IMG/VR virus record: IMGVR_UViG_2531839663_000002
Strand: one strand, 5' to 3'
DNA: 9,710 bases
Source: a virus
Taxonomy: Duplodnaviria; Heunggongvirae; Uroviricota; Caudoviricetes
This document shows positions 1 through 9,710 of this stretch, piece after piece; positions within the stretch are counted from its first letter, which is position 1; each line of letters starts with the position of its first letter. The position numbers and the translations under genes were made by a program. The notes under the pieces are model-generated. The model saw only the letters and a list, made by a program, of their open reading frames with translations, made no database searches and was not told the DNA's origin.

Positions 1-156
1 TTGCATCAAGAACAGCAGTGTCAGCCCTAGGCTCTCGGACTTTGTACCGCTTATCTTGTCTTCAAAAATCAGCTCGCCTCCTGCACAGTTCAACGCATTA
101 CGTTGTAGATCGATTTTCTGGTCATTTGTTGATACGAAAACATAGCCAATAAGCAT
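1..156 (-). CDS. Serine DNA invertase (Pin/Gin/Hin family), 5' portion only; gene runs off the left window edge; carries the same Arg-to-Phe change as the right copy
   Basis: Minus strand of 1..156 is identical to 2203..2358, so it encodes MLIGYVFVSTNDQKIDLQRNALNCAGGELIFEDKISGTKSE...; start codon at 156..154 preceded by a GAGGGAG Shine-Dalgarno. Not in the ORF track because it is open at the edge. Confidence 0.7.
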   Translation of the reverse strand, partial: MLIGYVFVSTNDQKIDLQRNALNCAGGELIFEDKISGTKSESLGLTLLFLMQ

Positions 157-182
157 GGTAGCTCCCTCTGACAAAAGCAGGA

Positions 183-725
183 ATGATGCCATTTTCTCGT
201 TATTTCTGCATTTTCATAAACGTTGGTTTGGGAGAAGGCTCTGCATTACCGGTTGGGGTGCCTGTTCCGTGGCCTTCAGCCACTCCGCCAACAGGCTGGC
301 TGAAATGCAACGGTGCCGCTTTTTCTGCTGAAGAATACCCGGAACTGGCAAAGGCTTATCCGACAAATAAATTGCCTGATTTACGTGGTGAGTTTATTCG
401 TGGCTGGGATGACGGGCGTGGTATTGATGCTGTACGTGCCTTGCTAAGTCTTCAGAATGGAGGAGTGGAATCACACACCCACCAAGGGCAGCTCTTCAGA
501 GTTAGTGATTATCGTACAAAAGAAATACCAGCATCAGAAGTTATGGGAAGAGGATATATTGCAAGCCTGACGCCGGGTGCTGATAGCCCACTTGATTTTG
601 ATGATTATTCTGTATCTTCTAATCCAAATGGATATTTTGTCGGGAATCAGAGAACAACAGCATATGGGATAAATGAAACCCGTCCACGGAATATTGCATT
701 TAACTATATCGTGAGGGCTGCCTGA
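183..725 (+). CDS. Phage tail-fibre C-terminal (variable, receptor-binding) module; orphan segment with no constant N-terminal part upstream
   Basis: 180-aa ORF with tail-collar-like PVPWPSATPPTGWLKCNGAAFSAEEYPELAKAYP...DLRGEFIRGWDDGRG and terminal NIAFNYIVRAA typical of tail-fibre C-termini. First 18 codons lie in the repeat; in-frame stop at 159..161, so no upstream fusion is possible. Stop overlaps next start (TGATG at 723..727). Confidence 0.7.
   Translation: MMPFSRYFCIFINVGLGEGSALPVGVPVPWPSATPPTGWLKCNGAAFSAEEYPELAKAYPTNKLPDLRGEFIRGWDDGRGIDAVRALLSLQNGGVESHTHQGQLFRVSDYRTKEIPASEVMGRGYIASLTPGADSPLDFDDYSVSSNPNGYFVGNQRTTAYGINETRPRNIAFNYIVRAA
211..236. other. Putative invertase crossover site (hix/gix/pix-like), left copy
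   Basis: Reverse complement reads TTCTCCCAAACCAACGTTTATGAAAA, resembling remembered 26-bp sites hixL TTCTTGAAAACCAAGGTTTTTGATAA and gix TTCCTGTAAACCGAGGTTTTGGATAA (shared TTC..AAACC.A.GTTT..GA.AA). Sits at the inner end of the long repeat. Confidence 0.6.
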
Positions 726-1327
726 TGAATAAAGCCGTATTAAATAACGAACTCATTGCCATAAAAGCGGGAGACATTACCATTTATAATTATGATGGTG
801 AAACGCGGGAATATATTTCCACATCAACTGAATATCTTGCGGTTGGCGTCGGTATCCCGGCATGTTCTTGTTTAGATGCACCAGTTACACATAAAGCTGG
901 TTATGCAATCTGCCGTTCTGCAGATTTTAACTCATGGGAATATGTGCCAGACCATCGCGGTGAAATCATCTATAGCACCGAAACAGGAGAATCGAAAGAA
1001 ATCACAGCTCCGGGTGATTACCCTGAAAATACAACCACTATCGCCCCGTTAACGCCATATGATAAATGGGATGGTGAGAAATGGGTGACGGATACTGAGG
1101 CACAGCATAGTGCCGCAGTAGACGCGGCAGAAGCACAGCGCCAGTCACTGATTGATGCAGCAATGGCTTCCATTAGTCTGATTCAGCTGAAATTACAGGC
1201 CGGACGGAAGTTGACGCAGGCAGAAACAACCCGACTTAACGCCGTGCTGGATTACATTGACGCGGTGGCGGCAACAGATACCAGCACCGCGCCGGATGTC
1301 ATCTGGCCTGAACTGCCGGAGGCGTAG
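725..1327 (+). CDS. Tail fibre assembly protein (Tfa/U-like chaperone)
   Basis: 200-aa ORF translationally coupled to the upstream fibre module; C-terminal LDYIDAVAATDTSTAPDVIWPELP matches the conserved Tfa C-terminal motif and is shared with the convergent paralog. Confidence 0.8.
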   Translation: MNKAVLNNELIAIKAGDITIYNYDGETREYISTSTEYLAVGVGIPACSCLDAPVTHKAGYAICRSADFNSWEYVPDHRGEIIYSTETGESKEITAPGDYPENTTTIAPLTPYDKWDGEKWVTDTEAQHSAAVDAAEAQRQSLIDAAMASISLIQLKLQAGRKLTQAETTRLNAVLDYIDAVAATDTSTAPDVIWPELPEA

Positions 1328-1742
1328 GCCATTCAATATCTGGCGCACTGGAGGAATCAACCAGTTCCAGTGCGTCCAGATAATCCAGCCACAAATTATA
1401 TTGCGCCAGTTCATCATCTTTCAGACGACCAATAGCGGCTTTACCGGGCCATTGCTTACTGTTCATGTATTCGTTGGCCTGGTTAATTAGTAGCTGTCTT
1501 TCTGATTCAGTAATTTCAATAAGTTCTTCATGCGTGGGTGGAGGAATATCTGCCCACGCAGGCAGCCCATCATCTCCGGCAATACGGATTTTTCCTTGTG
1601 GCGGTTCAGCCATAAACTCACTGATAATATTTTGATTTACTTCCTTAGCGTCTGATAAATCCCATCCCTCTGATTTATATTTATCAATCATATCCACAGG
1701 GAAAAAAGCATTATGCCTTGCGCTATAAACATATTCGTTCAT
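1299..1742 (-). CDS. Tail fibre assembly protein (Tfa'/U'-like), second allele
   Basis: Minus-strand ORF; probable start is ATG at 1742..1740 (MNEYVYSARH...) with a GGGTGA Shine-Dalgarno about 7 nt upstream (the ORF track begins at an upstream GTG, 1751). C-terminus LWLDYLDALELVDSSSAPDIEWPTPP parallels the other Tfa. 3' ends overlap the + strand tfa by 29 nt. Confidence 0.8.
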   Translation of the reverse strand: MNEYVYSARHNAFFPVDMIDKYKSEGWDLSDAKEVNQNIISEFMAEPPQGKIRIAGDDGLPAWADIPPPTHEELIEITESERQLLINQANEYMNSKQWPGKAAIGRLKDDELAQYNLWLDYLDALELVDSSSAPDIEWPTPPAVQAR

Positions 1743-1762
1743 ATAAATCACCCTGAATAAAA

Positions 1763-2176
1763 TTACTCACCAACAGCCCACCAACTGTAATTCATCGATA
1801 CCGTGTCGCTGGTTGATGACGTCCTGTAAGCAGAATTAAAGCCGGTTAACGTTGGGCCTTCTGCAGTCATCACGAACCCTCGCCCAGCGCCTAAAGGCGC
1901 ACCGCCATCACCAGAATGAGTAAGCATGGCGCAGTCCGCTTTTTTGGGGAAAGGGATGCTGAATGTAATTCTCATTGTTTGCGTCGATAATGTCGGCGTA
2001 ACCGCACCACTACCATATTGCAGGATTTTCCCGTTGGGTAATTTCATCCATCCATCACCACTGGCAAAAGAGGCCATGTCCGGTATCTGATTTTCCCCTG
2101 TCCCTACATCCCGTTTTGCCGCTTCTCCCAAACCAACGTTTATGAAAATGCAGAAATAACGAGAAAATGGCATCAT
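1763..2176 (-). CDS. Phage tail-fibre C-terminal (variable) module, alternative allele
   Basis: 137-aa ORF starting with the same 18 residues (MMPFSRYFCIFINVGLGE) as 183..725 because both begin in the repeat, then diverging; followed 20 nt downstream by its own tfa gene. Confidence 0.7.
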   Translation of the reverse strand: MMPFSRYFCIFINVGLGEAAKRDVGTGENQIPDMASFASGDGWMKLPNGKILQYGSGAVTPTLSTQTMRITFSIPFPKKADCAMLTHSGDGGAPLGAGRGFVMTAEGPTLTGFNSAYRTSSTSDTVSMNYSWWAVGE

Positions 2177-2358
2177 TCCTGCTTTTGTCAGAGGGAGCTA
2201 CCATGCTTATTGGCTATGTTTTCGTATCAACAAATGACCAGAAAATCGATCTACAACGTAATGCGTTGAACTGTGCAGGAGGCGAGCTGATTTTTGAAGA
2301 CAAGATAAGCGGTACAAAGTCCGAGAGCCTAGGGCTGACACTGCTGTTCTTGATGCAA
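2122..2358. repeat. Right copy of the inverted repeat (IR-R)
   Basis: Exact reverse complement of 1..237. Confidence 0.9.
2123..2148. other. Putative invertase crossover site (hix/gix/pix-like), right copy
   Basis: TTCTCCCAAACCAACGTTTATGAAAA on the + strand; exact inverted partner of 211..236. Confidence 0.6.
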
Positions 2359-2394
2359 ATTAAAGGATTTAATAGTGAGTTGTGGCCTTACTAA
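2203..2394 (+). pseudogene. Serine DNA invertase (Pin/Gin/Hin family) remnant: N-terminal ~40 codons recognisable, then divergent and terminated
   Basis: MLIGYVFVSTNDQKIDLQRNALNCAGGELIFEDKISGTKSE closely matches remembered Gin/Pin N-termini (MLIGYVRVSTNDQ..DLQRNAL..IFEDK.SG). The conserved Arg before the catalytic Ser is Phe (TTC). Frame stops at 2392..2394 after about 64 codons, against roughly 190 aa for an intact invertase. GAGGGAG Shine-Dalgarno precedes ATG 2203. Confidence 0.8.
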
Positions 2395-2427: not shown

Positions 2428-4317
2428 TTAATCGTGTTTTGGCCATACTTTCAATGCAATTTCCCCCAACTTTTTACCCCGCTCCAGGATTTCACCCTCA
2501 TCCCATTTATCCTTAAGTATAAGTGGTATGTTCAGTCGTAGATTGGTGTGGACGATGAGAGCATCACGTTTTTTCAGAAATACAGCATTCTGAACAGAAC
2601 GGTTTACGCTAAGGTTAAGCAAAGTTAGATTTCCCAACGTAGCTATCGCTTGTTGCCGTTTCCTTACCAGTAGCTGCTCAGGGGTAAGATCTGTTCCAGA
2701 CAGAACAATTTGGTTCAATACCGTTGCATCTGAATTTGTCACCATATGACCATTTTCGAGAGGCCAACAGGAATACCAACTTTGAGGCATAAGATGATCG
2801 ATATCGAGATTGGAAAGATTTGGAACATCAGGCTTCTCTGTCTTCACTTGGCGACAAAGTTCTCTTTCAAGTTCCGTTAACATTGAGCGCATTTTCGGTG
2901 CGTCGAGCCTGCCAGGATAAAGTGGAGCATTGATGCAAGCATTGAGAAATTCTGAGTCACCAGGCCAACGTGAGGCTTCGCCATTTAAGCTATTGAGGAT
3001 ATTACGTAACTCAACACTGGAAATTTCCGTTTTAGACAAGTGCCGCAATACATTCATAAATACATTGTTGTAATTCTTTGGCGTCAGGCCACATACGGCT
3101 CTTCGTACTACGTAGGAGACAAGATCATTATACATGGCTGCTTTCTCATCATCGGCGATATTAGCTATCGAAATGAACAAAGCAAGCGGATAAAGTGTCG
3201 TCACATCATAGGCTGCGATGCGATGTCCAAAGTGTGAGATGGGGGTTGTGCCAAAACCACCAACTAATTCTTTATATTGTGATGCATATTGTTTGAGGCG
3301 CTTTACTTGCAGATCAGCTCGTTGTGAAGGCAAGTCCTTACTTACATAATCACGATACTCATTGTAAAGACGAGACAGATCAATTTCACGTTGCCTTTCT
3401 GATTGCAATGTCGCATGCACTAGCCACTCCATGCGTGGTTTATTAATACGTCCACGGCGTTGCCTTTCCGACCAGTATGTATCTTCAAAGCTCTTCCACT
3501 CATTTTCATATAATTCAATAGCATTAATATTTTCATGCTCAGCGCACATAAAGATGTAGTTGCGAATAAGATCCGTGGCATGAAGTTCCGCCCCTCGGCC
3601 ATTTAATGTTTCAAAAATTATTTGGGCATCATCTTCAGCTTCGAGAAATATGCTTACCAGTTTCAGATCCGTCAAGACAGCCTCAATTAGTGCTACAGCA
3701 TTTTCATGTGGTGAGTACTGTTCTATTTTAATCCATTTTATAAAGGCTTCAGTAAAAAACCATAATGCCTCTAGTGACGGCGGGTGGTTGAAATGTTTAC
3801 GTAACGTACCATGTTGCGTGAAGCTATCAGAAAATACATCACGGAGATCGTCAATGTTTTCAACATTAAAACTTTGAATAAAATGAGTTTGGTCTCGAAA
3901 AGTTGGCCACAGTTTGAAGCATTCTACCTTTTTATTTCGCATAGTTGCTTCGTTTGTATTTTTCAAGCAAGTCAATACTAACCCTTCCAAATCAGAAAGG
4001 CCTGTAGCACGCAATGATAATCGAATGGATGCCAGAATATATTGAAGAGTGGTTAAACGTTGCTGGCCGTCAATAATATGTATGGTATCTACACCTAACA
4101 AGCTGTTTTTGAGTTGAGGTTCCAGCACCACCGCGCCAAGGAAATGGGGAGTTGGTTTTGTTCCCAAAAGTCGGCTATGTGCTTTTTCGAAGATATCCTC
4201 CAGCAAAGCTGACCATTGGTTTTGTTGCGTCCATACGTAGGCACGTTGATAGAATGGAACACGATATTGTCGTTGATTTTGGAAAAGTTGCTGGATGGTT
4301 AGCGTTTCGGATTTCAT
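2428..4317 (-). CDS. GmrSD-family type IV (modification-dependent) restriction endonuclease, DUF262 + DUF1524 architecture
   Basis: 629-aa ORF. N-terminal region has the DUF262 hallmark DGQQR (aa 83-87, ...IHIIDGQQRLTTL) with upstream YRVPFYQRAYVW; C-terminal region has an HNH/His-Me-like DIDHLMPQSW ... NLTLLNLSVNRSVQN pattern typical of DUF1524. Confidence 0.8.
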   Translation of the reverse strand: MKSETLTIQQLFQNQRQYRVPFYQRAYVWTQQNQWSALLEDIFEKAHSRLLGTKPTPHFLGAVVLEPQLKNSLLGVDTIHIIDGQQRLTTLQYILASIRLSLRATGLSDLEGLVLTCLKNTNEATMRNKKVECFKLWPTFRDQTHFIQSFNVENIDDLRDVFSDSFTQHGTLRKHFNHPPSLEALWFFTEAFIKWIKIEQYSPHENAVALIEAVLTDLKLVSIFLEAEDDAQIIFETLNGRGAELHATDLIRNYIFMCAEHENINAIELYENEWKSFEDTYWSERQRRGRINKPRMEWLVHATLQSERQREIDLSRLYNEYRDYVSKDLPSQRADLQVKRLKQYASQYKELVGGFGTTPISHFGHRIAAYDVTTLYPLALFISIANIADDEKAAMYNDLVSYVVRRAVCGLTPKNYNNVFMNVLRHLSKTEISSVELRNILNSLNGEASRWPGDSEFLNACINAPLYPGRLDAPKMRSMLTELERELCRQVKTEKPDVPNLSNLDIDHLMPQSWYSCWPLENGHMVTNSDATVLNQIVLSGTDLTPEQLLVRKRQQAIATLGNLTLLNLSVNRSVQNAVFLKKRDALIVHTNLRLNIPLILKDKWDEGEILERGKKLGEIALKVWPKHD

Positions 4318-4874
4318 TGTTTACCTATAAGTGACATTCCACAAGAGTAAGAAATTCATCTGAGTCAGAATAATCATTTTTATGTAGTCATGATACAGTG
4401 TATTTGTTGCTGGTGAAGTAAAAACGAGAAATCCCGCTTTTGAATGCTGACGTGCTACGGTTTCATTGGATATTCTCTTTTGTCTGTTCTCCATTGCGTC
4501 GGTGTTTTTTCGAGATTGTTAGCACATTGTTGCTGCTGTTTTTTTATCCAAGCGCTGCTAAATCATTGTAGATGGCACTATCGGGTATTGAAGCTGCAGA
4601 CATGTCGTATACAATAGTCAGCTGCGACTGGCTGGTGAACTTCCGATAGTGCGAGTATTGAATGATTTCCAACTGTTATCGATTTTGCGTATTTTTTGCA
4701 TGAGAGGATTTTTACCTCCTCCCACCGATCCTCCATGGCTTTACGCCAGTGTCTCTGGTCTGCTATGTACCAGAAGCGGAAGTTGTGTCTGTTAGTATGA
4801 TATTATAATTACACTCGCTTATAATAAGCCCACAATACAGATATAAAAATATCTCAACGCTTGGGAGTTAACAA

Positions 4875-5336
4875 ATGATTAACTTTACTGAAATTGATAG
4901 TGACGGTGAAGCCTGGGAGTCATTTGCCCGTGATTTTCTTGAAGAACTTGGCTTTTATATTGAATCCGCGCCAGATAGAGGTGCAGATGGAGGTAAAGAT
5001 CTTTTAATCACAGAGCAATTGCAAGGTCAGTTAAATAAATATAAATTTCGTTGGCTTGTTAGCTGTAAACATTATGCAACAAGTAAAAAATCAGTTTCAG
5101 AAAAGGATGAGATTAATATACAAGAACGTATTGATGGATTCAATGCCGACGGATTTATTGGATTTTACTCAACACTGCCAAGTAGTGGTTTAAATTCAAG
5201 AATGACGCAATTAAAAGAGAATGGAAAAATAAAGGACTTTCGATTCTTTGATGGTAAATTAATTGAAAATCACTTAGTCAGAATTGGTTACTCAAAACTA
5301 CTCCTTAGATACTTTCCTGAGAGCTATAAAAAATAA
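4875..5336 (+). CDS. Small stand-alone Mrr-cat-like (PD-(D/E)xK fold) restriction-endonuclease domain protein
   Basis: 153-aa ORF with GGGAG Shine-Dalgarno about 8 nt before the ATG. Motifs GADGGKDLL (4980..5006) and FRWLVSCKHY resemble the Mrr catalytic core (GDGGIDL ... QCKRY). No N-terminal DNA-binding domain. Confidence 0.65.
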   Translation: MINFTEIDSDGEAWESFARDFLEELGFYIESAPDRGADGGKDLLITEQLQGQLNKYKFRWLVSCKHYATSKKSVSEKDEINIQERIDGFNADGFIGFYSTLPSSGLNSRMTQLKENGKIKDFRFFDGKLIENHLVRIGYSKLLLRYFPESYKK

Positions 5337-5347
5337 AACCCAAGCAT

Positions 5348-5785
5348 TTGATTTTTGATAAGTACTTACCTATAAAATGTGATCGTTGTGGAAAGGACTT
5401 AATAGAAAACCATCATGAAGAAAATTATGATGGCATTGTGTGCAATGCAGAGATCATACACGATGACAAACCAAATGAGGTGATAGCGGTTTATTATGCG
5501 TGTAAAGGTGATTGTGATAAGCATTTTGAGGATTATTTTTGGAATGAATATAAAGCGATTACGAGATGGCAGGATATAAGTGATCTAGCCATCCCATTAT
5601 TCTATCTCAAATGGATTATGGGGACATTTAATGAACTTGAGTATGGAAGGAAAACATATACCAAAGAAGCCTTCAATAAAACAAAGGAGATAACATTAGC
5701 GCTATCTCAAATTGTTATGAGAGAAATGACAGAAAAAGAAAGAGAAAGAGTGATGGCTTTGAATTCACTACCTGATTACATATAA
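5348..5785 (+). CDS. Cys-rich hypothetical protein (possible C4 zinc ribbon), likely co-transcribed with the upstream Mrr-cat gene
   Basis: 145-aa ORF starting 12 nt after the upstream stop, same strand. Only a TTG start is in frame and no clear Shine-Dalgarno is seen. CxxC (CDRC) plus CxxxC (CKGDC) could form a zinc ribbon; no recognisable family. Confidence 0.5.
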   Translation: MIFDKYLPIKCDRCGKDLIENHHEENYDGIVCNAEIIHDDKPNEVIAVYYACKGDCDKHFEDYFWNEYKAITRWQDISDLAIPLFYLKWIMGTFNELEYGRKTYTKEAFNKTKEITLALSQIVMREMTEKERERVMALNSLPDYI

Positions 5786-5958
5786 ATTATATTTACTAAC
5801 ATTTGAACTAGCGCATCTTTGGTGCAGAGACACCACCATCTTGGGGACACTGTGAGGCCACTGGCTTCCCAACTTATCGTTATACAGGATAATAAGGTGC
5901 TCCAGGGTAGCTATGAACTTGATGTTACGTCTGCGATTTGCTCATAAGGGACAACCAT

Positions 5959-5991
5959 ACTCAAATCTCCCACATTGCAGGAGATTTGAGT
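5959..5991 (+). promoter_or_regulatory. Hairpin sequestering the Shine-Dalgarno of the tyrosine recombinase gene
   Basis: Perfect 12-bp inverted repeat ACTCAAATCTCC (5959..5970) / GGAGATTTGAGT (5980..5991) with 9-nt loop; the right arm contains GGAG and ends one base before ATG 5992. Confidence 0.5.
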
Positions 5992-6594
5992 ATGAACACG
6001 TCACCGTGGAACAAAGACCGTATCATCGGCCAAAAAAGACCACTTCAGATATCTCATATCTGGGGGATCCGAATCCGGCTTGAACTGGAAGGTAAAACGC
6101 GCGATTTAGCTCAGTTCGATATGGCCCTGGACAGTAAGCTACGAGGCTGTGATCTGGTCAAACTCAAAGTATCTGATGTTGCATATGGTAGCTCTGCTTC
6201 AAGCAGAGCTACGGTGCTGCAACAGAAAACCGGTAGCCCTGTGCAGTTTGAGATAACCAAAGGGACAAGAGAAGCTGTTGCTGCATTGATAATGCTTGGC
6301 AATTTGCATAGTAAAGACTTCTTGTTTCGGTTTCTGGTCGGAACTAATTAGCTCATATCTACCCGGCAATACAACCGAATTTTTCATGGGTGGGTAGAAA
6401 AGCTTGGTCTCGAAGATTCGCTTTACAGCACTCATTCCATGAGAAGAACAAAACCTTACCTGATCTACAAGAAAACCAAGAATCTTCGGGTGATCCAACT
6501 TCTGTTGGGCCATAAGAAACTGGAAAGCACAGTCCGTTATCTGGGTATTGAAGTAGATGATGTGTTAGAGATCTCTGAATCGATTGAAGTCTAA
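5992..6594 (+). pseudogene. Compact (~200 aa) tyrosine recombinase/integrase (catalytic domain only) interrupted by an in-frame TAG at 6349..6351
   Basis: One frame runs 5992..6594 with a single TAG at 6349..6351. Before it: LRGCDLVKLKVSDV...QQKTGSPVQFEITKGTREAV (box I Arg). After it: HSMRRTKPYLIYKKTKNLRVIQLLLGHKKLESTVRYLGIEVDD (H-x-x-R, His, RY Tyr). The downstream part is missing from the ORF track only for lack of a start codon. Confidence 0.8.
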
Positions 6595-6600
6595 GGTTGT

Positions 6601-6622
6601 CAGGGCTGCAACAACAGCCCTG
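6601..6622 (+). other. GC-rich stem-loop just after the recombinase stop codon
   Basis: CAGGGCTG (6601..6608), loop CAACAA, CAGCCCTG (6615..6622); no following T-tract, so not a canonical intrinsic terminator. A TTGACA hexamer follows at 6633..6638. Confidence 0.35.
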
Positions 6623-6717
6623 TGCCAGGAGTTGACACTGTTAGCATCGCGCTATGTTAATTTATGTTGAGCAGTTAAAAATGATAATGTAGTTTATATG
6701 GATAATCAGTTTATAGA

Positions 6718-7599
6718 GTGGGTGAGATGGAACTAGATGAAACACTTGAAGTTATCAAAAATAATTTTAGTAATAATCAGAAGAAACTATTTAAAAGGAT
6801 TGAGCCAGCCACTAACCGTCAAGTAGCTATCGGTCTTATTAGTTTACAAGGAGTGGAAAAAACATCTCAGGCTGAGATAGAGGTAATTGCCGGCCTCATA
6901 TCTCAGTTTAGTCCATTGGAAATCGATAGTTTTCAAAATTCACCACGACGAATAACTCTGAAAGGTCAATTCCCAAACGGACATATTGTTTATATCGAGC
7001 CTCAGTATAAGGTTGGCAATATAAACCCAAAAGCCCAGCCTTGGGCAATAGACCTTGTCCTTAGACTAAATAGATGGATTGGTCAAGATTTGGTTGAGAT
7101 TGCTGCTATTGGCATCGAGTATGATGGCCACATAGCTCATTATGTGGAAAGTAAAATTAAGTCTACTTACAAGCGTGATGCAGTAATAACTAGTAACGAA
7201 GGATTTCAATCGATTAGGATCTCACCAGAACAATGGAAATCGTCTAAAGAGGATCTTAAGAAGGCAATTAAAAAGTATTTTGAACATCACATAAAAAAAA
7301 TTGAAAAAGTTCAACTAAGCACAATAAACGCCCAAAATTTCAACAATTTTATTTATGAAAATGAAAATGAAGTGATATCCACTGTAACTTGCCCTTTATG
7401 TAATGGAAAAGGCAGTTTAGCGGGAGAAGATTGTCCGATCTGTAATGGAATGGGATCCGTAAAAAGATATATTGCTGCAAAGGTGAATCTTTCTAATTAT
7501 GAAAAATTCACTTGTCCTGACTGCAGGAATATAAAATTAGATTGCAGAACCTGCAATGGTGAAGGATCAATTAGCAGAGAAAAAGCATTAGAAATGTAA
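6718..7599 (+). CDS. Fusion protein: DUF559/Vsr-like PD-(D/E)xK nuclease domain plus C-terminal DnaJ-type CxxCxGxG zinc finger
   Basis: 293-aa ORF (GTG 6718 or ATG 6727 start, ambiguous). Central AIDLVL...AIGIEYDGHIAHY...KRDAVITSNEGFQSIRIS matches the DUF559 pattern (IExDGxxH ... RDxx ... GxxxxR). C-terminus has CPLCNGKG, CPICNGMG, CPDCRN, CRTCNGEG (about 7390..7566), as in the DnaJ cysteine-rich domain. Confidence 0.7.
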   Translation: MGEMELDETLEVIKNNFSNNQKKLFKRIEPATNRQVAIGLISLQGVEKTSQAEIEVIAGLISQFSPLEIDSFQNSPRRITLKGQFPNGHIVYIEPQYKVGNINPKAQPWAIDLVLRLNRWIGQDLVEIAAIGIEYDGHIAHYVESKIKSTYKRDAVITSNEGFQSIRISPEQWKSSKEDLKKAIKKYFEHHIKKIEKVQLSTINAQNFNNFIYENENEVISTVTCPLCNGKGSLAGEDCPICNGMGSVKRYIAAKVNLSNYEKFTCPDCRNIKLDCRTCNGEGSISREKALEM

Positions 7600-7904
7600 T
7601 GATAAAAGTAAACCTAAATAATTTAGTGTAATGTCTGCTTTTCGCTCATAACAGACATAAACTTCAGTTATGGCATAAAGGTATGCATGCTGGGTGGGGA
7701 AAGTATGAAGGAAAAGAAGACTGCTGCGCCGTTTGTCGTCACGTTTATCTTCATTGGCTATGTAAGTCGTAATACAAGGTGGGACAAAACTGAGACACAT
7801 AAGGCCTCGCAATGGCTTGCAAGGCTTTACATGTTTTGATGTGGTGGGACGTGTGAGCGCAGTGTTGATGGGGTAATGCTTTGAATTAGAAGCGGATTCT
7901 TATA

Positions 7905-7950
7905 ATTCGTAATGCGAAGGTCGTAGGTTCGACTCCTATTATCGGCACCA
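7905..7950 (+). other. 3' fragment (~46 nt) of tRNA-Thr(CGU), thrW-like; attachment-site remnant marking the end of an integrated element
   Basis: ATTCGTAATGCGAAGGTCGTAGGTTCGACTCCTATTATCGGCACCA matches the 3' part of E. coli thrW as remembered (anticodon-loop CGT, T-arm GGTTCGACTCC, acceptor end with CCA). Sequence upstream of 7905 does not match the tRNA 5' half, so this is not an intact gene. Confidence 0.75.
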
Positions 7951-8403
7951 TCTTTTATAATAAAATCATCAAGTTATTATTGCATTGTTTTGCTTTGTTC
8001 AACACTAATGTGCAATTCTGCGCGTTGTAGATGTGGCAAAATTGTGGCAAGTACAGTGAGATTGTTTGTGGCTCAATGCAAGGGTATGCTAACGGCACGT
8101 GTTACCTTGTAGCTCCCGTCGATCTTGTCTTTTGAGCAATATTACTACTTTGATGGTTTCTGGTTACGGATGTTGTCAGTCCAGTTCGCAGCCAGCACGG
8201 TTTGACCTAAAGGATGTTATTACAATAACCTACGCAGGCATTCAAACACGTTTAGTCTGCCATTTAGGTTATTGCATTCACTTGACGACCCATTTGCATT
8301 TCACTTAGTCATATCTAACAAAAAAATGCATCCGATACCCTACTATTGACAGGCAGCTTTGAGCGATCTGCTGACATTACCAGCATAGTGGCGTATTAAT
8401 CAT

Positions 8404-8637
8404 CTAGGAGCAGGTCACAATCTCAGCCATCAAGCTCTGGACTAACCCAACTGCGAAACGCTGCAGACTAACAAGACCATCTTCGTCGTCCTCGCCGTAG
8501 AAACGTGTGAAGGCAACCGATCGCACCTTCTCATAGTCTTCACCATGTTCATCGCCTCCAAAACGCTTGGCGAGCGCCGCCAGCACGTACTTCAAAGACT
8601 CTTGGTCCTCCTCTGAACGAATAGAGCTATGACTTCG
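8404..8637 (-). pseudogene. Orphan 3' gene fragment of unknown function
   Basis: Minus-strand frame open from a stop at 8638..8640 to the stop at 8404, with no ATG or Shine-Dalgarno at its 5' end (the ORF track starts at a TTG). Acidic sequence ...GGDEHGEDYEKVRSVAFTRFYGEDDEDG...; no family recognised. Could be spurious. Confidence 0.25.
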
Positions 8638-8804
8638 CTAGAGACAAAGTCGCTTACTTAGCTTCCCTGTTTCGATGTTGCAACTCACATATTTTTAACT
8701 TTCAGAATGTGTTACCCAATAGTTCGTGCTAATGCTACTATTTGTATTCAATCGGATTAATGATGTTGTTACGCGAGTCCATTGAACTAAACATAAGGGA
8801 GTAT

Positions 8805-9330
8805 ATGGGGTTAGCTGAAACATTAGTTAGTATTCCGCAGTCTGAAAGAGGCGGTGAGATTGCTCAACGTGGGTTTGACTATCAAACTTGCTGGGCTTTA
8901 TCTCAAATGCTGGAATATGAACTAGATGAAAAGAACTATGTGTTTATCTTCGAATATCATGATGATGTTCTTATTCTTGATGACGAAGTTTCTCCAACAC
9001 AACTCACATTTGCTCAAGTAAAAACAAGAGAGAAACACTGGACTGCATCCACTCTTAGTAATAGCACCAAGAAGAACCCAATATCTATCATCGGTAAGTT
9101 ATTTATTCATCAAAAGAATTTCGCCGAATATTCACCCAAGCTCCTTTTTGTTACTAATGCTTCTTTCAATCTATGTGAGGAAAACGGTGGTAAGTCTTGT
9201 TTTGGTGCAAATGAAGTCAAAGTGGAGTATCAGACGAGCTTTAAGAAAGCAATCAAAGATCAAGTAAAGCTTGATGACTCCAGTATCGATCTTTCTGTTA
9301 TGCGTTTCGTTCAATCCTCATTAAGCCTAG
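8805..9330 (+). pseudogene. PD-(D/E)xK-like nuclease-domain gene (resembles DUF4297-type domains of defence proteins), 3'-truncated by IS5
   Basis: ATG at 8805 with AAGGGA Shine-Dalgarno at 8795..8800. Motifs GFDYQTCWAL, EYHDDVLILDD and FAQVKT fit a D...(E/Q)xK core. The frame continues into the IS5 terminus from 9331; the last residues GKVRTSP are IS-encoded, so the native C-terminus is missing. Confidence 0.6.

Positions 9331-9710
<380 letters not shown>

What the first reader, a model, noticed from the sequence alone, without database searches (positions are those of the whole stretch)
5992..6594. Otherwise intact small tyrosine recombinase inactivated by a single in-frame TAG
The reading frame is continuous except for the TAG at 6349..6351, and the box I Arg, H-x-x-R, His and RY Tyr are all present. 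This looks like a recent nonsense mutation or a sequencing error. The size and catalytic-domain-only layout resemble FimB/FimE-type switch recombinases, so it may once have controlled a local inversion or excision.
Basis: partly seen in the sequence, partly recalled or inferred. Interest (0 to 1): 0.5.

Follow-up and report, generated by a model that had tools for sequence, protein, structure and literature searches.

The report
Dead recombinase in a gene-cassette slot
The gene is a truly broken copy (a real, inherited stop codon) of a small recombinase, and it sits inside a previously little-noticed system of paired 30-bp sites at which E. coli prophages swap anti-phage gene cassettes.

Summary
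ORF 5992..6594 is a 200-codon tyrosine-recombinase gene with one in-frame TAG at 6349..6351. A sister allele has CAG (Gln) there. The TAG is real, not a sequencing error: the exact 119-aa truncated product is on record on 121 contigs. "Otherwise intact" is only partly right, because this lineage also carries changes at five family-conserved residues, including R115L.

It is not a FimB/FimE-type switch. The gene belongs to a very large family of ~200-aa, catalytic-domain-only recombinases. Each copy lies between two 30-bp sites (11-bp arm, 8-bp spacer, 11-bp arm) of two spacer classes: L (YTCGCTCA) and R (TGTGCCAR). The same sites bracket the neighbouring accessory genes.

Across prophages, one backbone carries up to 10 different cargos between R and L, many of them anti-phage genes. 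The breakpoints fall inside the 8-bp spacers, which is the signature of site-specific cassette exchange.

In the window the slot runs from R (4755..4784) to L (7630..7659). That this recombinase family is the enzyme is inferred from position only. The window's copy is dead, so its cassettes are probably frozen unless another copy acts in trans.

The parts
5992..6594 (+). Pseudogene of a ~200-aa, catalytic-domain-only tyrosine recombinase (Q120* allele)
   Evidence: Translation. Pfam PF00589, 53.4 bits. Intact 200-aa sister allele WP_053903522.1. Family alignment A2.
6349..6351 (+). In-frame TAG (codon 120). The sister allele has CAG, a C>T change at 6349
   Evidence: The same allele is in 10 of 10 fetched loci and on 121 contigs.
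5926..5955 (+). L-type site of the recombinase unit: TACGTCTGCGA-TTTGCTCA-TAAGGGACAAC. The outer arm is good; the inner arm is degenerate, as in all copies
   Evidence: Junction comparison. PWM score 29.0. Similarity between contexts starts inside this spacer. Coordinates.
5956..5994 (+). Perfect 15-9-15 hairpin whose 3' arm holds the Shine-Dalgarno GGAG and the ATG
   Evidence: Unique in the window, 0 of 200 shuffles. RNA fold -28.5 kcal/mol, z -4.4. Family-wide: SD paired in 59% of leaders vs 23% of control ORFs, p=6e-11.
6601..6622 (+). 3' hairpin CAGGGCTG-CAACAA-CAGCCCTG after the stop codon, overlapping the inner arm of the R site
   Evidence: Read from the sequence. Conserved in all enterobacterial copies.
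6610..6639 (+). R-type site of the recombinase unit: AACAACAGCCC-TGTGCCAG-GAGTTGACACT. The outer arm is degenerate here (consensus AAGCGGACATT)
   Evidence: (score 18.4 vs 28-34 in other copies). Similarity between contexts ends at 6628, the last base of the spacer.
4755..4784 (+). R-type site at the left edge of the cargo slot: CTGGTCTGCTA-TGTACCAG-AAGCGGAAGTT (one spacer mismatch)
   Evidence: PWM 19.5. The backbone-side arm and left flank are shared with L005/L006, while the cargo-side arm differs. Equivalent to the 'left inverted repeat' of the P2-EC67 Z-region.
4875..5785 (+). Cargo 1: Mrr-like restriction endonuclease, 91% identical in DNA to P2-EC67 ORF1. Split in the window by an A6-for-A7 run at 5328..5333
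   Evidence: Pfam Mrr_cat. Intact 303-aa gene in L001 and in all 10 TAG-allele loci. Homology to AJ512685 positions 92..1259.
6718..7599 (+). Cargo 2: 293-aa protein with a DnaJ-type zinc finger and a weak REase-like match
   Evidence: Lies between the R site at 6610 and the L site at 7630.
7630..7659 (+). Canonical L-type site at the right edge of the cargo slot: AATGTCTGCTT-TTCGCTCA-TAACAGACATA
   Evidence: Found by the arm-spacer-arm model. Backbone shared with L005/L007 resumes at 7642, inside this spacer.

Best explanation
The ORF is a genuinely inactivated copy of a small, catalytic-domain-only tyrosine recombinase. It carries an inherited amber mutation, Q120*, on top of earlier substitutions at conserved residues. 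It sits in the accessory-gene slot at the thrW-distal end of a defective Mu/e14-like prophage of E. coli.

The family it belongs to is always placed between two 30-bp core-type sites (11-bp inverted arms around an 8-bp spacer). The spacers fall into two non-interchangeable classes: L (YTCGCTCA) upstream and R (TGTGCCAR) downstream. The same sites bracket neighbouring cargo genes as R-cargo-L, and they occur fused as ~75-bp L-linker-R doublets between cassettes.

Shown here: the sites exist far above chance and only at 8-bp spacing. At prophage hotspots the same backbone holds many alternative cargos, and backbone-to-cargo breakpoints fall inside the 7-bp spacer cores. The recombinase unit itself has the same kind of boundaries.

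Inferred: the recombinase catalyses L x L and R x R exchange. This would insert or delete circular cassettes and, because the two site classes are heterospecific, would swap cassettes between replicons in the manner of recombinase-mediated cassette exchange. A family-wide hairpin that buries the ribosome-binding site probably blocks translation from read-through transcripts.

In the window the truncated 119-aa product lacks H-x-x-R, His and Tyr, so it cannot catalyse anything. The local cassettes (Mrr-like gene, zinc-finger gene) are therefore probably frozen unless another copy acts in trans.
For: Pseudogene: CAG>TAG; 121 contigs, 10 of 10 loci with TAG; five conserved residues changed; catalytic residues downstream of the stop.

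Family: about 8000 homologues at E<=1e-3, 74-93% identical among the top 120. 543 loci in GTDB species across Gamma- and Betaproteobacteria and beyond. No conserved neighbour gene.

Sites: terminal inverted repeats at every unit junction. PWM hits 263 vs 21 in shuffles. The arm-8-arm model finds 64 sites vs 0.45 expected, with spacers in two classes although they were not modelled. Only the 8-bp spacing is enriched, 64 vs at most 2. Distant lineages have analogous flanking sites.

Exchange: at least 120 phage contigs for each site type. 107 cassettes comprise 65 cargo types; one backbone has 10 cargos and the P2 Z/fun backbone has 9; 3 cargos occur in 2 backbones. The backbone-side arm is constant and the cargo-side arm travels with the cargo. 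Identity steps between spacer positions 7 and 8 at R, and between positions 1 and 2 at L.

Link to the gene: the unit's boundaries lie in the L and R spacers, and L088 equals L189 plus [recombinase-R-cargoB] inserted exactly at the L site.

Window slot: breakpoints at 4755..4784 and 7642, with retron Ec67 or other cargo in sister strains.

Hairpin.
Against: No experiment or binding data links this protein family to the sites; the link is positional only. In 225 phage loci with sites, only one has a near-full-length recombinase gene, so most sites would need the enzyme in trans, or another enzyme. Only 909 of 5426 complete E. coli genomes hold the gene. The pairs used for the breakpoint profile are phylogenetically related and dominated by two backbones. 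The viral loci were seeded with patterns that include the spacers. The AlphaFold model was too poor to use (pLDDT 48). Part of this (inverted repeats flanking P2 Z-region inserts, site-specific recombination proposed) was apparently reported in 2004, but I could not read that paper.
Confidence: 0.7

Rival explanations
1. The TAG is a sequencing or assembly error and the gene is intact in the organism.
For: The window does contain two probable assembly-type errors relative to its closest relative L112. Both are single-base homopolymer length changes: A6 vs A7 at 5328..5333 and T4 vs T5 near 9470.
Against: The TAG is a substitution, not a homopolymer indel. The exact truncated 119-aa product is called on 121 contigs from isolates and metagenomes, and 10 of 10 fetched loci carry TAG.
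Confidence: 0.02
2. It is, or was, a FimB/FimE-type invertase that flips a nearby promoter-bearing or tail-fibre segment as a phase-variation switch.
For: Similar size and catalytic-domain-only layout. There is a weak hit to the NCBIfam tyrosine-type DNA invertase model (E 0.0077). An invertible segment exists 3.6 kb upstream and is found in both orientations in near-identical genomes. L and R sites are roughly inverted copies of each other.
Against: The hit scores 15.8 bits against a cut-off of 222, and Xer models and XerD structures score better. The tail-fibre segment has 237-bp inverted repeats and its own truncated Pin-type serine invertase gene at 2167..2394. L and R spacers differ at 2 of 8 positions in either orientation, hybrid spacers are not seen, and 58 of 64 sites keep one orientation. 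The comparative signature is replacement and insertion of cargo, not inversion.
Confidence: 0.05
3. The L/R sites are real recombination sites, but they are used by another enzyme (a phage integrase, host XerCD or an unknown protein). The small recombinase is just another passenger that happens to occupy the L-to-R position.
For: Most phage loci with sites lack the gene (1 of 225). The gene is absent from 83% of complete E. coli genomes. No biochemical evidence exists.
Against: Every examined copy of the gene, from E. coli to Pseudomonas and Burkholderiales at 57-60% protein identity, is flanked by the same kind of inverted sites. That is hard to explain for a mere passenger. The site geometry (11-8-11 with a 7-bp core) is that of a tyrosine recombinase. 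The arms do not resemble E. coli dif as I recall its XerC/XerD arm sequences; this rests on memory and was not tested here. No other conserved gene accompanies the sites.
Confidence: 0.2
4. Cargo replacement happens by homologous or microhomology-mediated recombination between short conserved repeats that serve another purpose, such as transcription terminators or RNA hairpins, and not by site-specific recombination.
For: L-linker-R doublets are long imperfect palindromes that could act as terminators or RNA-stabilising hairpins between genes. Phage recombinases can use short homologies.
Against: The sites hold three identical 7-bp blocks (arm core, spacer core, arm core), yet breakpoints always fall in the middle one. 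At R sites, arm1 position 11 is 100% backbone-linked and spacer position 8 is cargo-linked, and L sites show the mirror image. The strict 8-bp spacing and the conserved arm sequence, as opposed to mere complementarity, point to protein recognition.
Confidence: 0.08

Closest known systems
Integrons (IntI with attI/attC gene cassettes)
   Same: A tyrosine recombinase is associated with arrays of single-gene cassettes separated by imperfect-palindrome sites. Site clusters often occur without the recombinase gene (compare CALINs). The cargo includes anti-phage genes.
   Different: The recombinase is about 200 aa with no core-binding domain and no room for the IntI-specific insertion. The NCBIfam model labelled 'site-specific tyrosine recombinase/integron integrase' scores 44 bits vs a cut-off of 220. 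The sites are conventional 11-8-11 double-strand-type cores of two heterospecific spacer classes, not attC hairpins with R/L boxes. Cargo lies in both orientations (44 + vs 21 -). The recombinase gene sits inside a site doublet, not beside an attI.
Acinetobacter pdif modules (XerC/XerD-site-flanked modules on plasmids). Comparison from my own knowledge of that literature
   Same: Discrete accessory-gene modules are bounded by inversely oriented Xer-type core sites. The same module occurs in different replicons, with boundaries at the sites.
   Different: pdif sites are 11-6-11 XerC/XerD sites served by the host Xer proteins. The hosts are enterobacterial prophages and islands.
FimB/FimE (and HbiF, IpuA, MrpI) phase-switch recombinases
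   Same: About 200-aa tyrosine recombinases that lack a separate N-terminal core-binding domain.
   Different: Sequence membership fails (15.8 vs 222 bits). There is no invertible promoter element, and the comparative signature is cassette insertion and replacement.
XerC/XerD/XerA/XerH
   Same: Closest solved relatives by profile search: XerD 2.6e-6, XerC-like 1.7e-5, XerA 1.3e-4, XerH 6e-4. Same catalytic motif set and core-site geometry.
   Different: Lacks the N-terminal domain. Scores far below the Xer equivalog cut-offs (39 vs 335 bits). Accessory and mobile, not a housekeeping chromosome-dimer resolvase.
P2 Z/fun ('Z-region') hotspot with flanking inverted repeats (Nilsson, Karlsson & Haggard-Ljungquist 2004; GenBank AJ512685)
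   Same: The annotated 'left' and 'right inverted repeats' of P2-EC67 correspond to an R-type and an L-type site. The window's cargo 1 is 91% identical to P2-EC67 ORF1, with homology ending at the sites. The P2 Z/fun backbone shows 9 cargos in 11 instances.
   Different: I could not read the paper, so I cannot say whether it defined the 11-8-11 sites, the two spacer classes, the spacer-level breakpoints or the recombinase family. Recent hotspot papers held in the library do not mention a recombinase or repeats at these hotspots.
Engineered recombinase-mediated cassette exchange (Cre with heterospecific lox sites, Flp with FRT/F3). Comparison from general knowledge
   Same: Two site classes have incompatible spacers flanking a cassette, which allows clean replacement by double reciprocal exchange.
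   Different: Here the arrangement is natural, and the enzyme is unproven.

Membership tests
Tyrosine recombinase superfamily (Pfam PF00589) | Profile match above the curated threshold | tested here: met
   53.4 bits vs a cut-off of 27.1, residues 35-184, with the stop masked.
Tyrosine recombinase superfamily (Pfam PF00589) | Catalytic R...K...H-x-x-R...H/W...Y on one polypeptide | tested here: not met
   All residues are encoded in frame (R51, K79, H148, R151, H174, Y183). However, TAG at codon 120 separates R51/K79 from the rest, so the 119-aa product cannot be active.
FimB/FimE-type tyrosine DNA invertases (NCBIfam NF007371) | Profile match above the curated threshold | tested here: not met
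   15.8 bits vs a cut-off of 222, E 0.0077, residues 120-184 only.
FimB/FimE-type tyrosine DNA invertases (NCBIfam NF007371) | An adjacent invertible element bounded by identical short inverted repeats and seen in two orientations | tested here: not met
   The flanking L and R sites have different spacers. 58 of 64 sites keep one orientation. The only segment seen in both orientations is the Pin-type tail-fibre segment 1..2358.
Xer recombinases (XerC/XerD) | Equivalog-level profile match and an N-terminal core-binding domain | tested here: not met
   TIGR02224 scores 39.3 vs 335 and TIGR02225 scores 22.4 vs 330. The protein is 200 aa, with the catalytic-domain match starting at residue 35 and no second domain hit.
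Integron integrases (IntI) | IntI-level profile match, plus attC-type sites next to the gene | tested here: not met
   Best related model NF040815 scores 44.2 vs 220. The neighbouring sites are 11-8-11 cores of two spacer classes, not attC.
Small recombinase nested between L and R sites (the unnamed family described here) | About 200 aa and high identity to the family | tested here: met
   92-93% identical to the top clusters, and 57-64% to Pseudomonas and Burkholderiales members.
Small recombinase nested between L and R sites (the unnamed family described here) | Gene flanked by an L-type site upstream and an inverted R-type site downstream, with unit boundaries inside the spacers | tested here: met
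   Window sites at 5926..5955 and 6610..6639. Similarity to other contexts runs 5940..6628. The outer arm of the R site is degenerate in this lineage.
Small recombinase nested between L and R sites (the unnamed family described here) | Leader hairpin that pairs the Shine-Dalgarno sequence | tested here: met
   Perfect 15-9-15 hairpin at 5956..5994. Family-wide enrichment.
Small recombinase nested between L and R sites (the unnamed family described here) | The protein binds and recombines L/R sites | not testable with these tools
   Needs in vivo or in vitro recombination assays. Only positional association is available.

The most novel reading that the evidence does not exclude
A widespread family of ~200-aa, catalytic-domain-only tyrosine recombinases drives a natural cassette-exchange system. 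Two heterospecific 30-bp core sites (7-bp cores TCGCTCA and TGTGCCA) alternate along arrays of single-gene cassettes, many of them anti-phage genes, in prophage hotspots (including P2 Z/fun), genomic islands and plasmids. Cassettes could then be inserted, deleted and swapped between replicons. The system would be integron-like in outcome but use conventional double-strand core sites, a minimal enzyme, and a recombinase gene that is itself one of the exchangeable units.
Probability: 0.55. Interest if true: 0.8.

Novelty: new variant of a known kind. Interest (0 to 1): 0.62.

Why it matters
How anti-phage defence genes get shuffled so quickly at a few fixed "hotspots" of temperate phages and islands is an open question. 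The recent hotspot papers I could read describe the pattern but name no recombinase or site for it.

The sites defined here give a concrete, testable mechanism and a search key. An arm-8-arm pattern delimits cassettes to the base. It recovered 65 cargo types from 107 cassettes, many matching known defence proteins and many matching nothing.

If the small recombinase is the enzyme, it is also one of the smallest tyrosine recombinases with defined heterospecific sites, which is of practical interest for cassette-exchange engineering.

For the window itself the message is modest. The gene is dead and was already decaying, so it is a marker of a frozen slot, not an active switch.

Tried and rejected
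1. The 15-9-15 palindrome over the start codon as the recombination core site: rejected. Across the family the arms and the loop length (3-14 nt) vary while pairing with the SD is kept. That fits an RNA-level RBS-sequestering hairpin.

2. A REP/REPIN-RAYT-like dispersed repeat: rejected. A doublet variant occurs 1-3 times per genome, and in the cases compared it lies within about 2 kb of the recombinase.

3. An IS-like autonomous element multiplying in genomes: rejected. The median is one copy per genome and the maximum is three.

4. A conserved partner gene: none. The best neighbour cluster is in 15 of 78 loci and is a LysR regulator.

5. Structure prediction: mean pLDDT 48, so it was not used and no fold search was run.

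6. A single-sequence PDB search found nothing. Only the profile search reached the Xer proteins.

7. Literature: accession numbers, site sequences and descriptive terms found no description of the system. Nilsson et al. 2004 is not held. The tyrosine-recombinase classification paper does not describe such a group.

8. ARAGORN finds no tRNA in the window. The attR was identified instead by an exact 46-nt match to the thrW 3' end.

Full report
**Observation**

The frame 5992..6594 (+) reads 200 codons with one internal stop, TAG at 6349..6351, and ends at TAA. With the stop masked, Pfam Phage_integrase matches residues 35-184 (53.4 bits, cut-off 27.1). The catalytic residues R51, K79, H148-x-x-R151, H174 and Y183 are encoded in frame and are conserved in a 38-sequence family alignment. 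Only R51 and K79 precede the stop, so the 119-aa product cannot be active.

**What the stop is**

E. coli 30EVA1 carries DNA 99.85% identical to window 4621..7951. There the gene is an uninterrupted 200-aa CDS (WP_053903522.1) with CAG at codon 120, so the window has a single C>T change at 6349. The column is variable in the family (Q/R/E/D/N/P/H).

The exact truncated 119-aa product is on record on 121 contigs in 177 blocks, from NCBI isolates, ENA/MGnify gut metagenomes and Logan. All ten fetched loci have TAG in the same prophage context. The stop is therefore a real, inherited allele and not a sequencing error.

The two indels that separate the window from its closest relative (L112, 0 mismatches over 7.6 kb) are different in kind. 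Both are one-base homopolymer changes: A6 vs A7 at 5328..5333, which splits the upstream 303-aa gene, and T4 vs T5 near 9470. All ten other loci have A7. These look like assembly errors or private slips.

The gene is not "otherwise intact". Both the TAG allele and its uninterrupted sister differ from the family at five invariant or near-invariant positions: N43D, S114F, R115L (R in 38/38), H121L and A191V. The outer arm of its right-hand site is also degenerate. Decay seems to have begun before the stop arose.

**Context**

The window is E. coli chromosome, at the thrW-distal end of a defective Mu/e14-like prophage. It contains, in order:
- a tail-fibre invertible segment (1..2358, with 237-bp perfect inverted repeats);
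- a truncated Pin-type invertase gene (2167..2394);
- a GmrSD gene (2428..4317, minus strand);
- an accessory slot that holds an Mrr-like endonuclease, the recombinase and a zinc-finger protein;
- a 46-nt copy of the thrW 3' end (7905..7950, attR);
- a second island with a Cap4-nuclease/DUF4297 gene next to an IS5.

The tail-fibre segment is inverted in the window relative to L112 and L109, and colinear with L104, L107, L108, L111 and L113. So a local inversion does occur, but it belongs to the Pin-type system and not to this gene.

**The family**

The repaired protein has about 8000 homologues at E<=1e-3. The top 120 clusters are 74-93% identical and nearly all are 194-203 aa. In one-genome-per-species data, 543 loci encode a relative, from Enterobacterales through Pseudomonas, Burkholderiales and methylotrophs to a few Flavobacteria, Acidobacteria and Chloroflexota, at 57-64% identity.

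No source gives the proteins a functional name. NCBIfam Xer, XerA and FimB-type models all score far below their cut-offs. The nearest solved proteins by profile search are XerD (2.6e-6), a XerC-like protein, XerA and XerH, and they align to the catalytic domain only. No neighbouring gene is conserved: the best neighbour cluster is in 15 of 78 loci.

About 17% of complete E. coli genomes (909 of 5426) hold the gene. It is usually present once, and it occurs in at least five unrelated places: the thrW prophage, a Qin-like prophage, the ypjA region, a dynamin island and plasmids.

**A leader hairpin**

Directly upstream of the ATG lies a perfect 15-9-15 palindrome (5956..5994). Its 3' arm contains the GGAG and the ATG. 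Across the family the arms and the loop (3-14 nt) differ, but the Shine-Dalgarno window stays paired. It is mostly paired in 59% of 81 leaders against 23% of 718 control ORF starts from the same loci (Fisher p=6e-11), and the leaders fold more stably (p=1.5e-8).

This is the pattern of an RBS-sequestering RNA hairpin. By analogy with insertion-sequence transposase genes, it probably blocks translation from read-through transcripts. That is inference. The consensus scan found no promoter inside it.

**The sites**

DNA similarity between copies in different contexts begins at window 5940 and ends at 6628. Just outside these points the flanks carry GTC(C/T)GC on the left and GCGGAC on the right. 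Aligned, the two ends are imperfect inverted repeats.

Position weight matrices of the two ends gave 263 hits in 467 kb of enterobacterial and phage loci, against 21 in block-shuffled controls. Many left-type hits are followed 47-50 nt later by a right-type hit, forming ~75-bp doublets between accessory genes.

Each end resolves into two 11-bp inverted arms (consensus AAYGTCCGCTY) around an 8-bp spacer. A model that used only the arms at a fixed spacing found 64 sites in 312 kb, against 0.45 expected. Only the 8-bp spacing is enriched (64 vs at most 2 at any spacing from 4 to 12). The unmodelled spacers fall into two classes, L = (C/T)TCGCTCA and R = TGTGCCA(G/A), and 58 of 64 sites share one orientation.

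Distant members carry analogous flanking sites, for example GTCCGCTT-CTGGCCGGT-TAGCGAC about 70-97 nt upstream and 29-59 nt downstream in Pseudomonas. The enterobacterial arm model is still enriched in their loci: 17 vs 2.4 at 8 bp and 10 vs 0.8 at 9 bp. The doublets are not a genome-wide repeat: they occur 1-3 times per genome, and in the cases compared within about 2 kb of the recombinase.

**Cassette exchange**

In the 225 loci fetched there are 397 sites and 114 R...L pairs with 0.5-4 kb of cargo. Of 107 cassettes with both flanks, there are 65 cargo types and 50 backbones. One backbone (Qin-like) occurs 29 times with 10 cargos. The P2 Z/fun backbone occurs 11 times with 9 cargos. Three cargos occur in two backbones.

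Within a backbone, the backbone-side arm of each site is constant while the cargo-side arm changes with the cargo. Where one cargo sits in two backbones, the cargo-side arms travel with it.

Position by position, over 118 and 124 pairs, identity at R sites is at least 0.97 through spacer position 7 and falls to 0.42 at position 8. At L sites, position 1 is cargo-linked (0.35) and positions 2-8 plus the distal arm are backbone-linked. Breakpoints therefore lie in the 7-bp cores TGTGCCA and TCGCTCA. They never fall in the equally identical arm cores. This argues for site-specific strand exchange and against homologous recombination.

The largest cargo ORFs include many PADLOC matches (PD-T7-1, PD-T7-5, PD-T4-2, ThsB, DarT/DarG, Tmn, PDC-S31/S33/S35, GmrSD), three RelA/SpoT-type proteins and HEPN proteins. 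There are also ArsB, APH and MFS genes, and many ORFs with no match.

**Link between gene and sites**

The recombinase unit behaves like a cassette in the opposite phase. Its boundaries in 12-14 contexts step inside the L spacer and at the last base of the R spacer.

L189 has backbone-R-cargoA-L-backbone. L088 has the same plus a 2.2-kb segment [recombinase-R-cargoB] inserted exactly at the L site, with a 16-bp overlap. It also has an extra cassette at the R site. That is what integration of circular molecules by L x L and R x R exchange would produce.

Only one of the 225 phage loci has a near-full-length gene, so the enzyme would mostly have to act in trans. This is the weakest link in the argument, and it is inference.

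**The window's slot**

The slot has an R-type site at 4755..4784 and an L-type site at 7630..7659. Sister strains with the same prophage hold a retron Ec67, a hypothetical gene or a ParA cluster there. The left flank and backbone-side arm are shared up to the R spacer, and the shared backbone resumes at 7642, inside the L spacer.

Cargo 1 (the Mrr-like gene) is 91% identical to ORF1 of the P2-EC67 Z-region, with homology running 4758..5933, that is, from site to site. The "left" and "right inverted repeats" annotated in that 2003 GenBank record are an R-type and an L-type site.

P2-like Yersinia phages keep an L site plus the first 72 nt of the recombinase unit at the right edge of their Z/fun cargo. 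Five of 12 phage-contig copies are similar remnants, and one carries a K8* nonsense change. Decay of this gene is therefore common.

**Verdict**

It is right about a recent nonsense mutation in a small recombinase with nearby repeat targets. It is wrong about a possible sequencing error, about "otherwise intact", and about FimB/FimE-type switching.

The gene is an ordinary pseudogene. It is of interest because it exposes a well-supported system of heterospecific core sites for cassette exchange at prophage hotspots. The assignment of the enzyme is plausible but unproven. Part of this was probably noted in 2004 for P2, but I could not read that paper. The recent hotspot literature available to me does not mention it.

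Noticed in passing
window 1..2358 (inverted-repeat arms 1..237 and 2122..2358): Tail-fibre invertible segment with 237-bp, 100% complementary inverted repeats. The left arm runs to the window edge. The segment is inverted in the window relative to the otherwise identical L112 and L109, and colinear with L104, L107, L108, L111 and L113. It therefore flips in nature even though the adjacent Pin-type invertase gene is truncated.
   Followed up: partly
window 2167..2394: Truncated Pin/Hin-type serine invertase gene (75 codons, MLIGYVFVSTNDQ...). It is cut off next to the GmrSD gene and is annotated 'recombinase family protein, missing C-terminus' in sister strains.
   Followed up: partly
window 5328..5333 and about 9470: The only two indels relative to the nearest relative L112 are homopolymer length changes: A6 vs A7, which splits the 303-aa Mrr-like gene into 4875..5336 and 5348..5785, and T4 vs T5. 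Ten of ten related loci have A7. These are probably assembly errors or private slips.
   Followed up: yes
window 7905..7950: Exact 46-nt copy of the 3' end of tRNA-Thr (thrW). It marks the prophage attR, and DNA shared with other thrW prophages stops at 7951. ARAGORN reports no tRNA because only the 3' part is present.
   Followed up: yes
window 7952..9710: A second accessory island follows the attR. It has a DUF4297/Cap4-nuclease-domain gene (8742..9353) next to an IS5 element. Only 7 complete E. coli genomes hold the whole stretch.
   Followed up: partly
window about 6001..6012; L004 3501..3572; L093; L098: Remnants of the recombinase unit end repeatedly near window 6011, after ...GTCACCGTGGA(A). 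This is seen in P2-like Yersinia phages, a metagenomic phage contig and several E. coli genomes, next to a small palindrome CACGTCACCGTG. The cause of the recurrent breakpoint is unknown.
   Followed up: partly
window 8337..8366 (minus strand): An L-like motif (GTCAGCAGATCGCTCAAAGCTG) lies on the minus strand, just after the minus-strand ORF 8404..8595. It resembles the P2-EC67 'right inverted repeat' and may be a relic of a cassette in the neighbouring island.
   Followed up: no
window 6718..7599: The 293-aa cargo protein combines a C-terminal DnaJ-type CXXCXGXG zinc finger with a weak REase_MTES_1575-like match. It has no family assignment above threshold and is a candidate defence gene of unknown type.
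   Followed up: no
L019-L087 (for example L034 and L036 at 7895): In Pseudomonas, Burkholderiales and other distant hosts, the recombinase is flanked by a variant site with 9-bp spacing (GTCCGCTT-CTGGCCGGT-TAGCGAC). Whether cassettes are exchanged there too was not examined.
   Followed up: partly
L-linker-R doublets, for example L002 7442..7513 and L088 3004..3075: The ~18-nt linker between the L and R sites of solo doublets is itself conserved and palindromic (CTTCAGCTCAGTGAGCTT-like), so the whole doublet is a ~75-nt imperfect hairpin. Its role is unknown; it could be a terminator, an RNA element or a synapsis aid.
   Followed up: no
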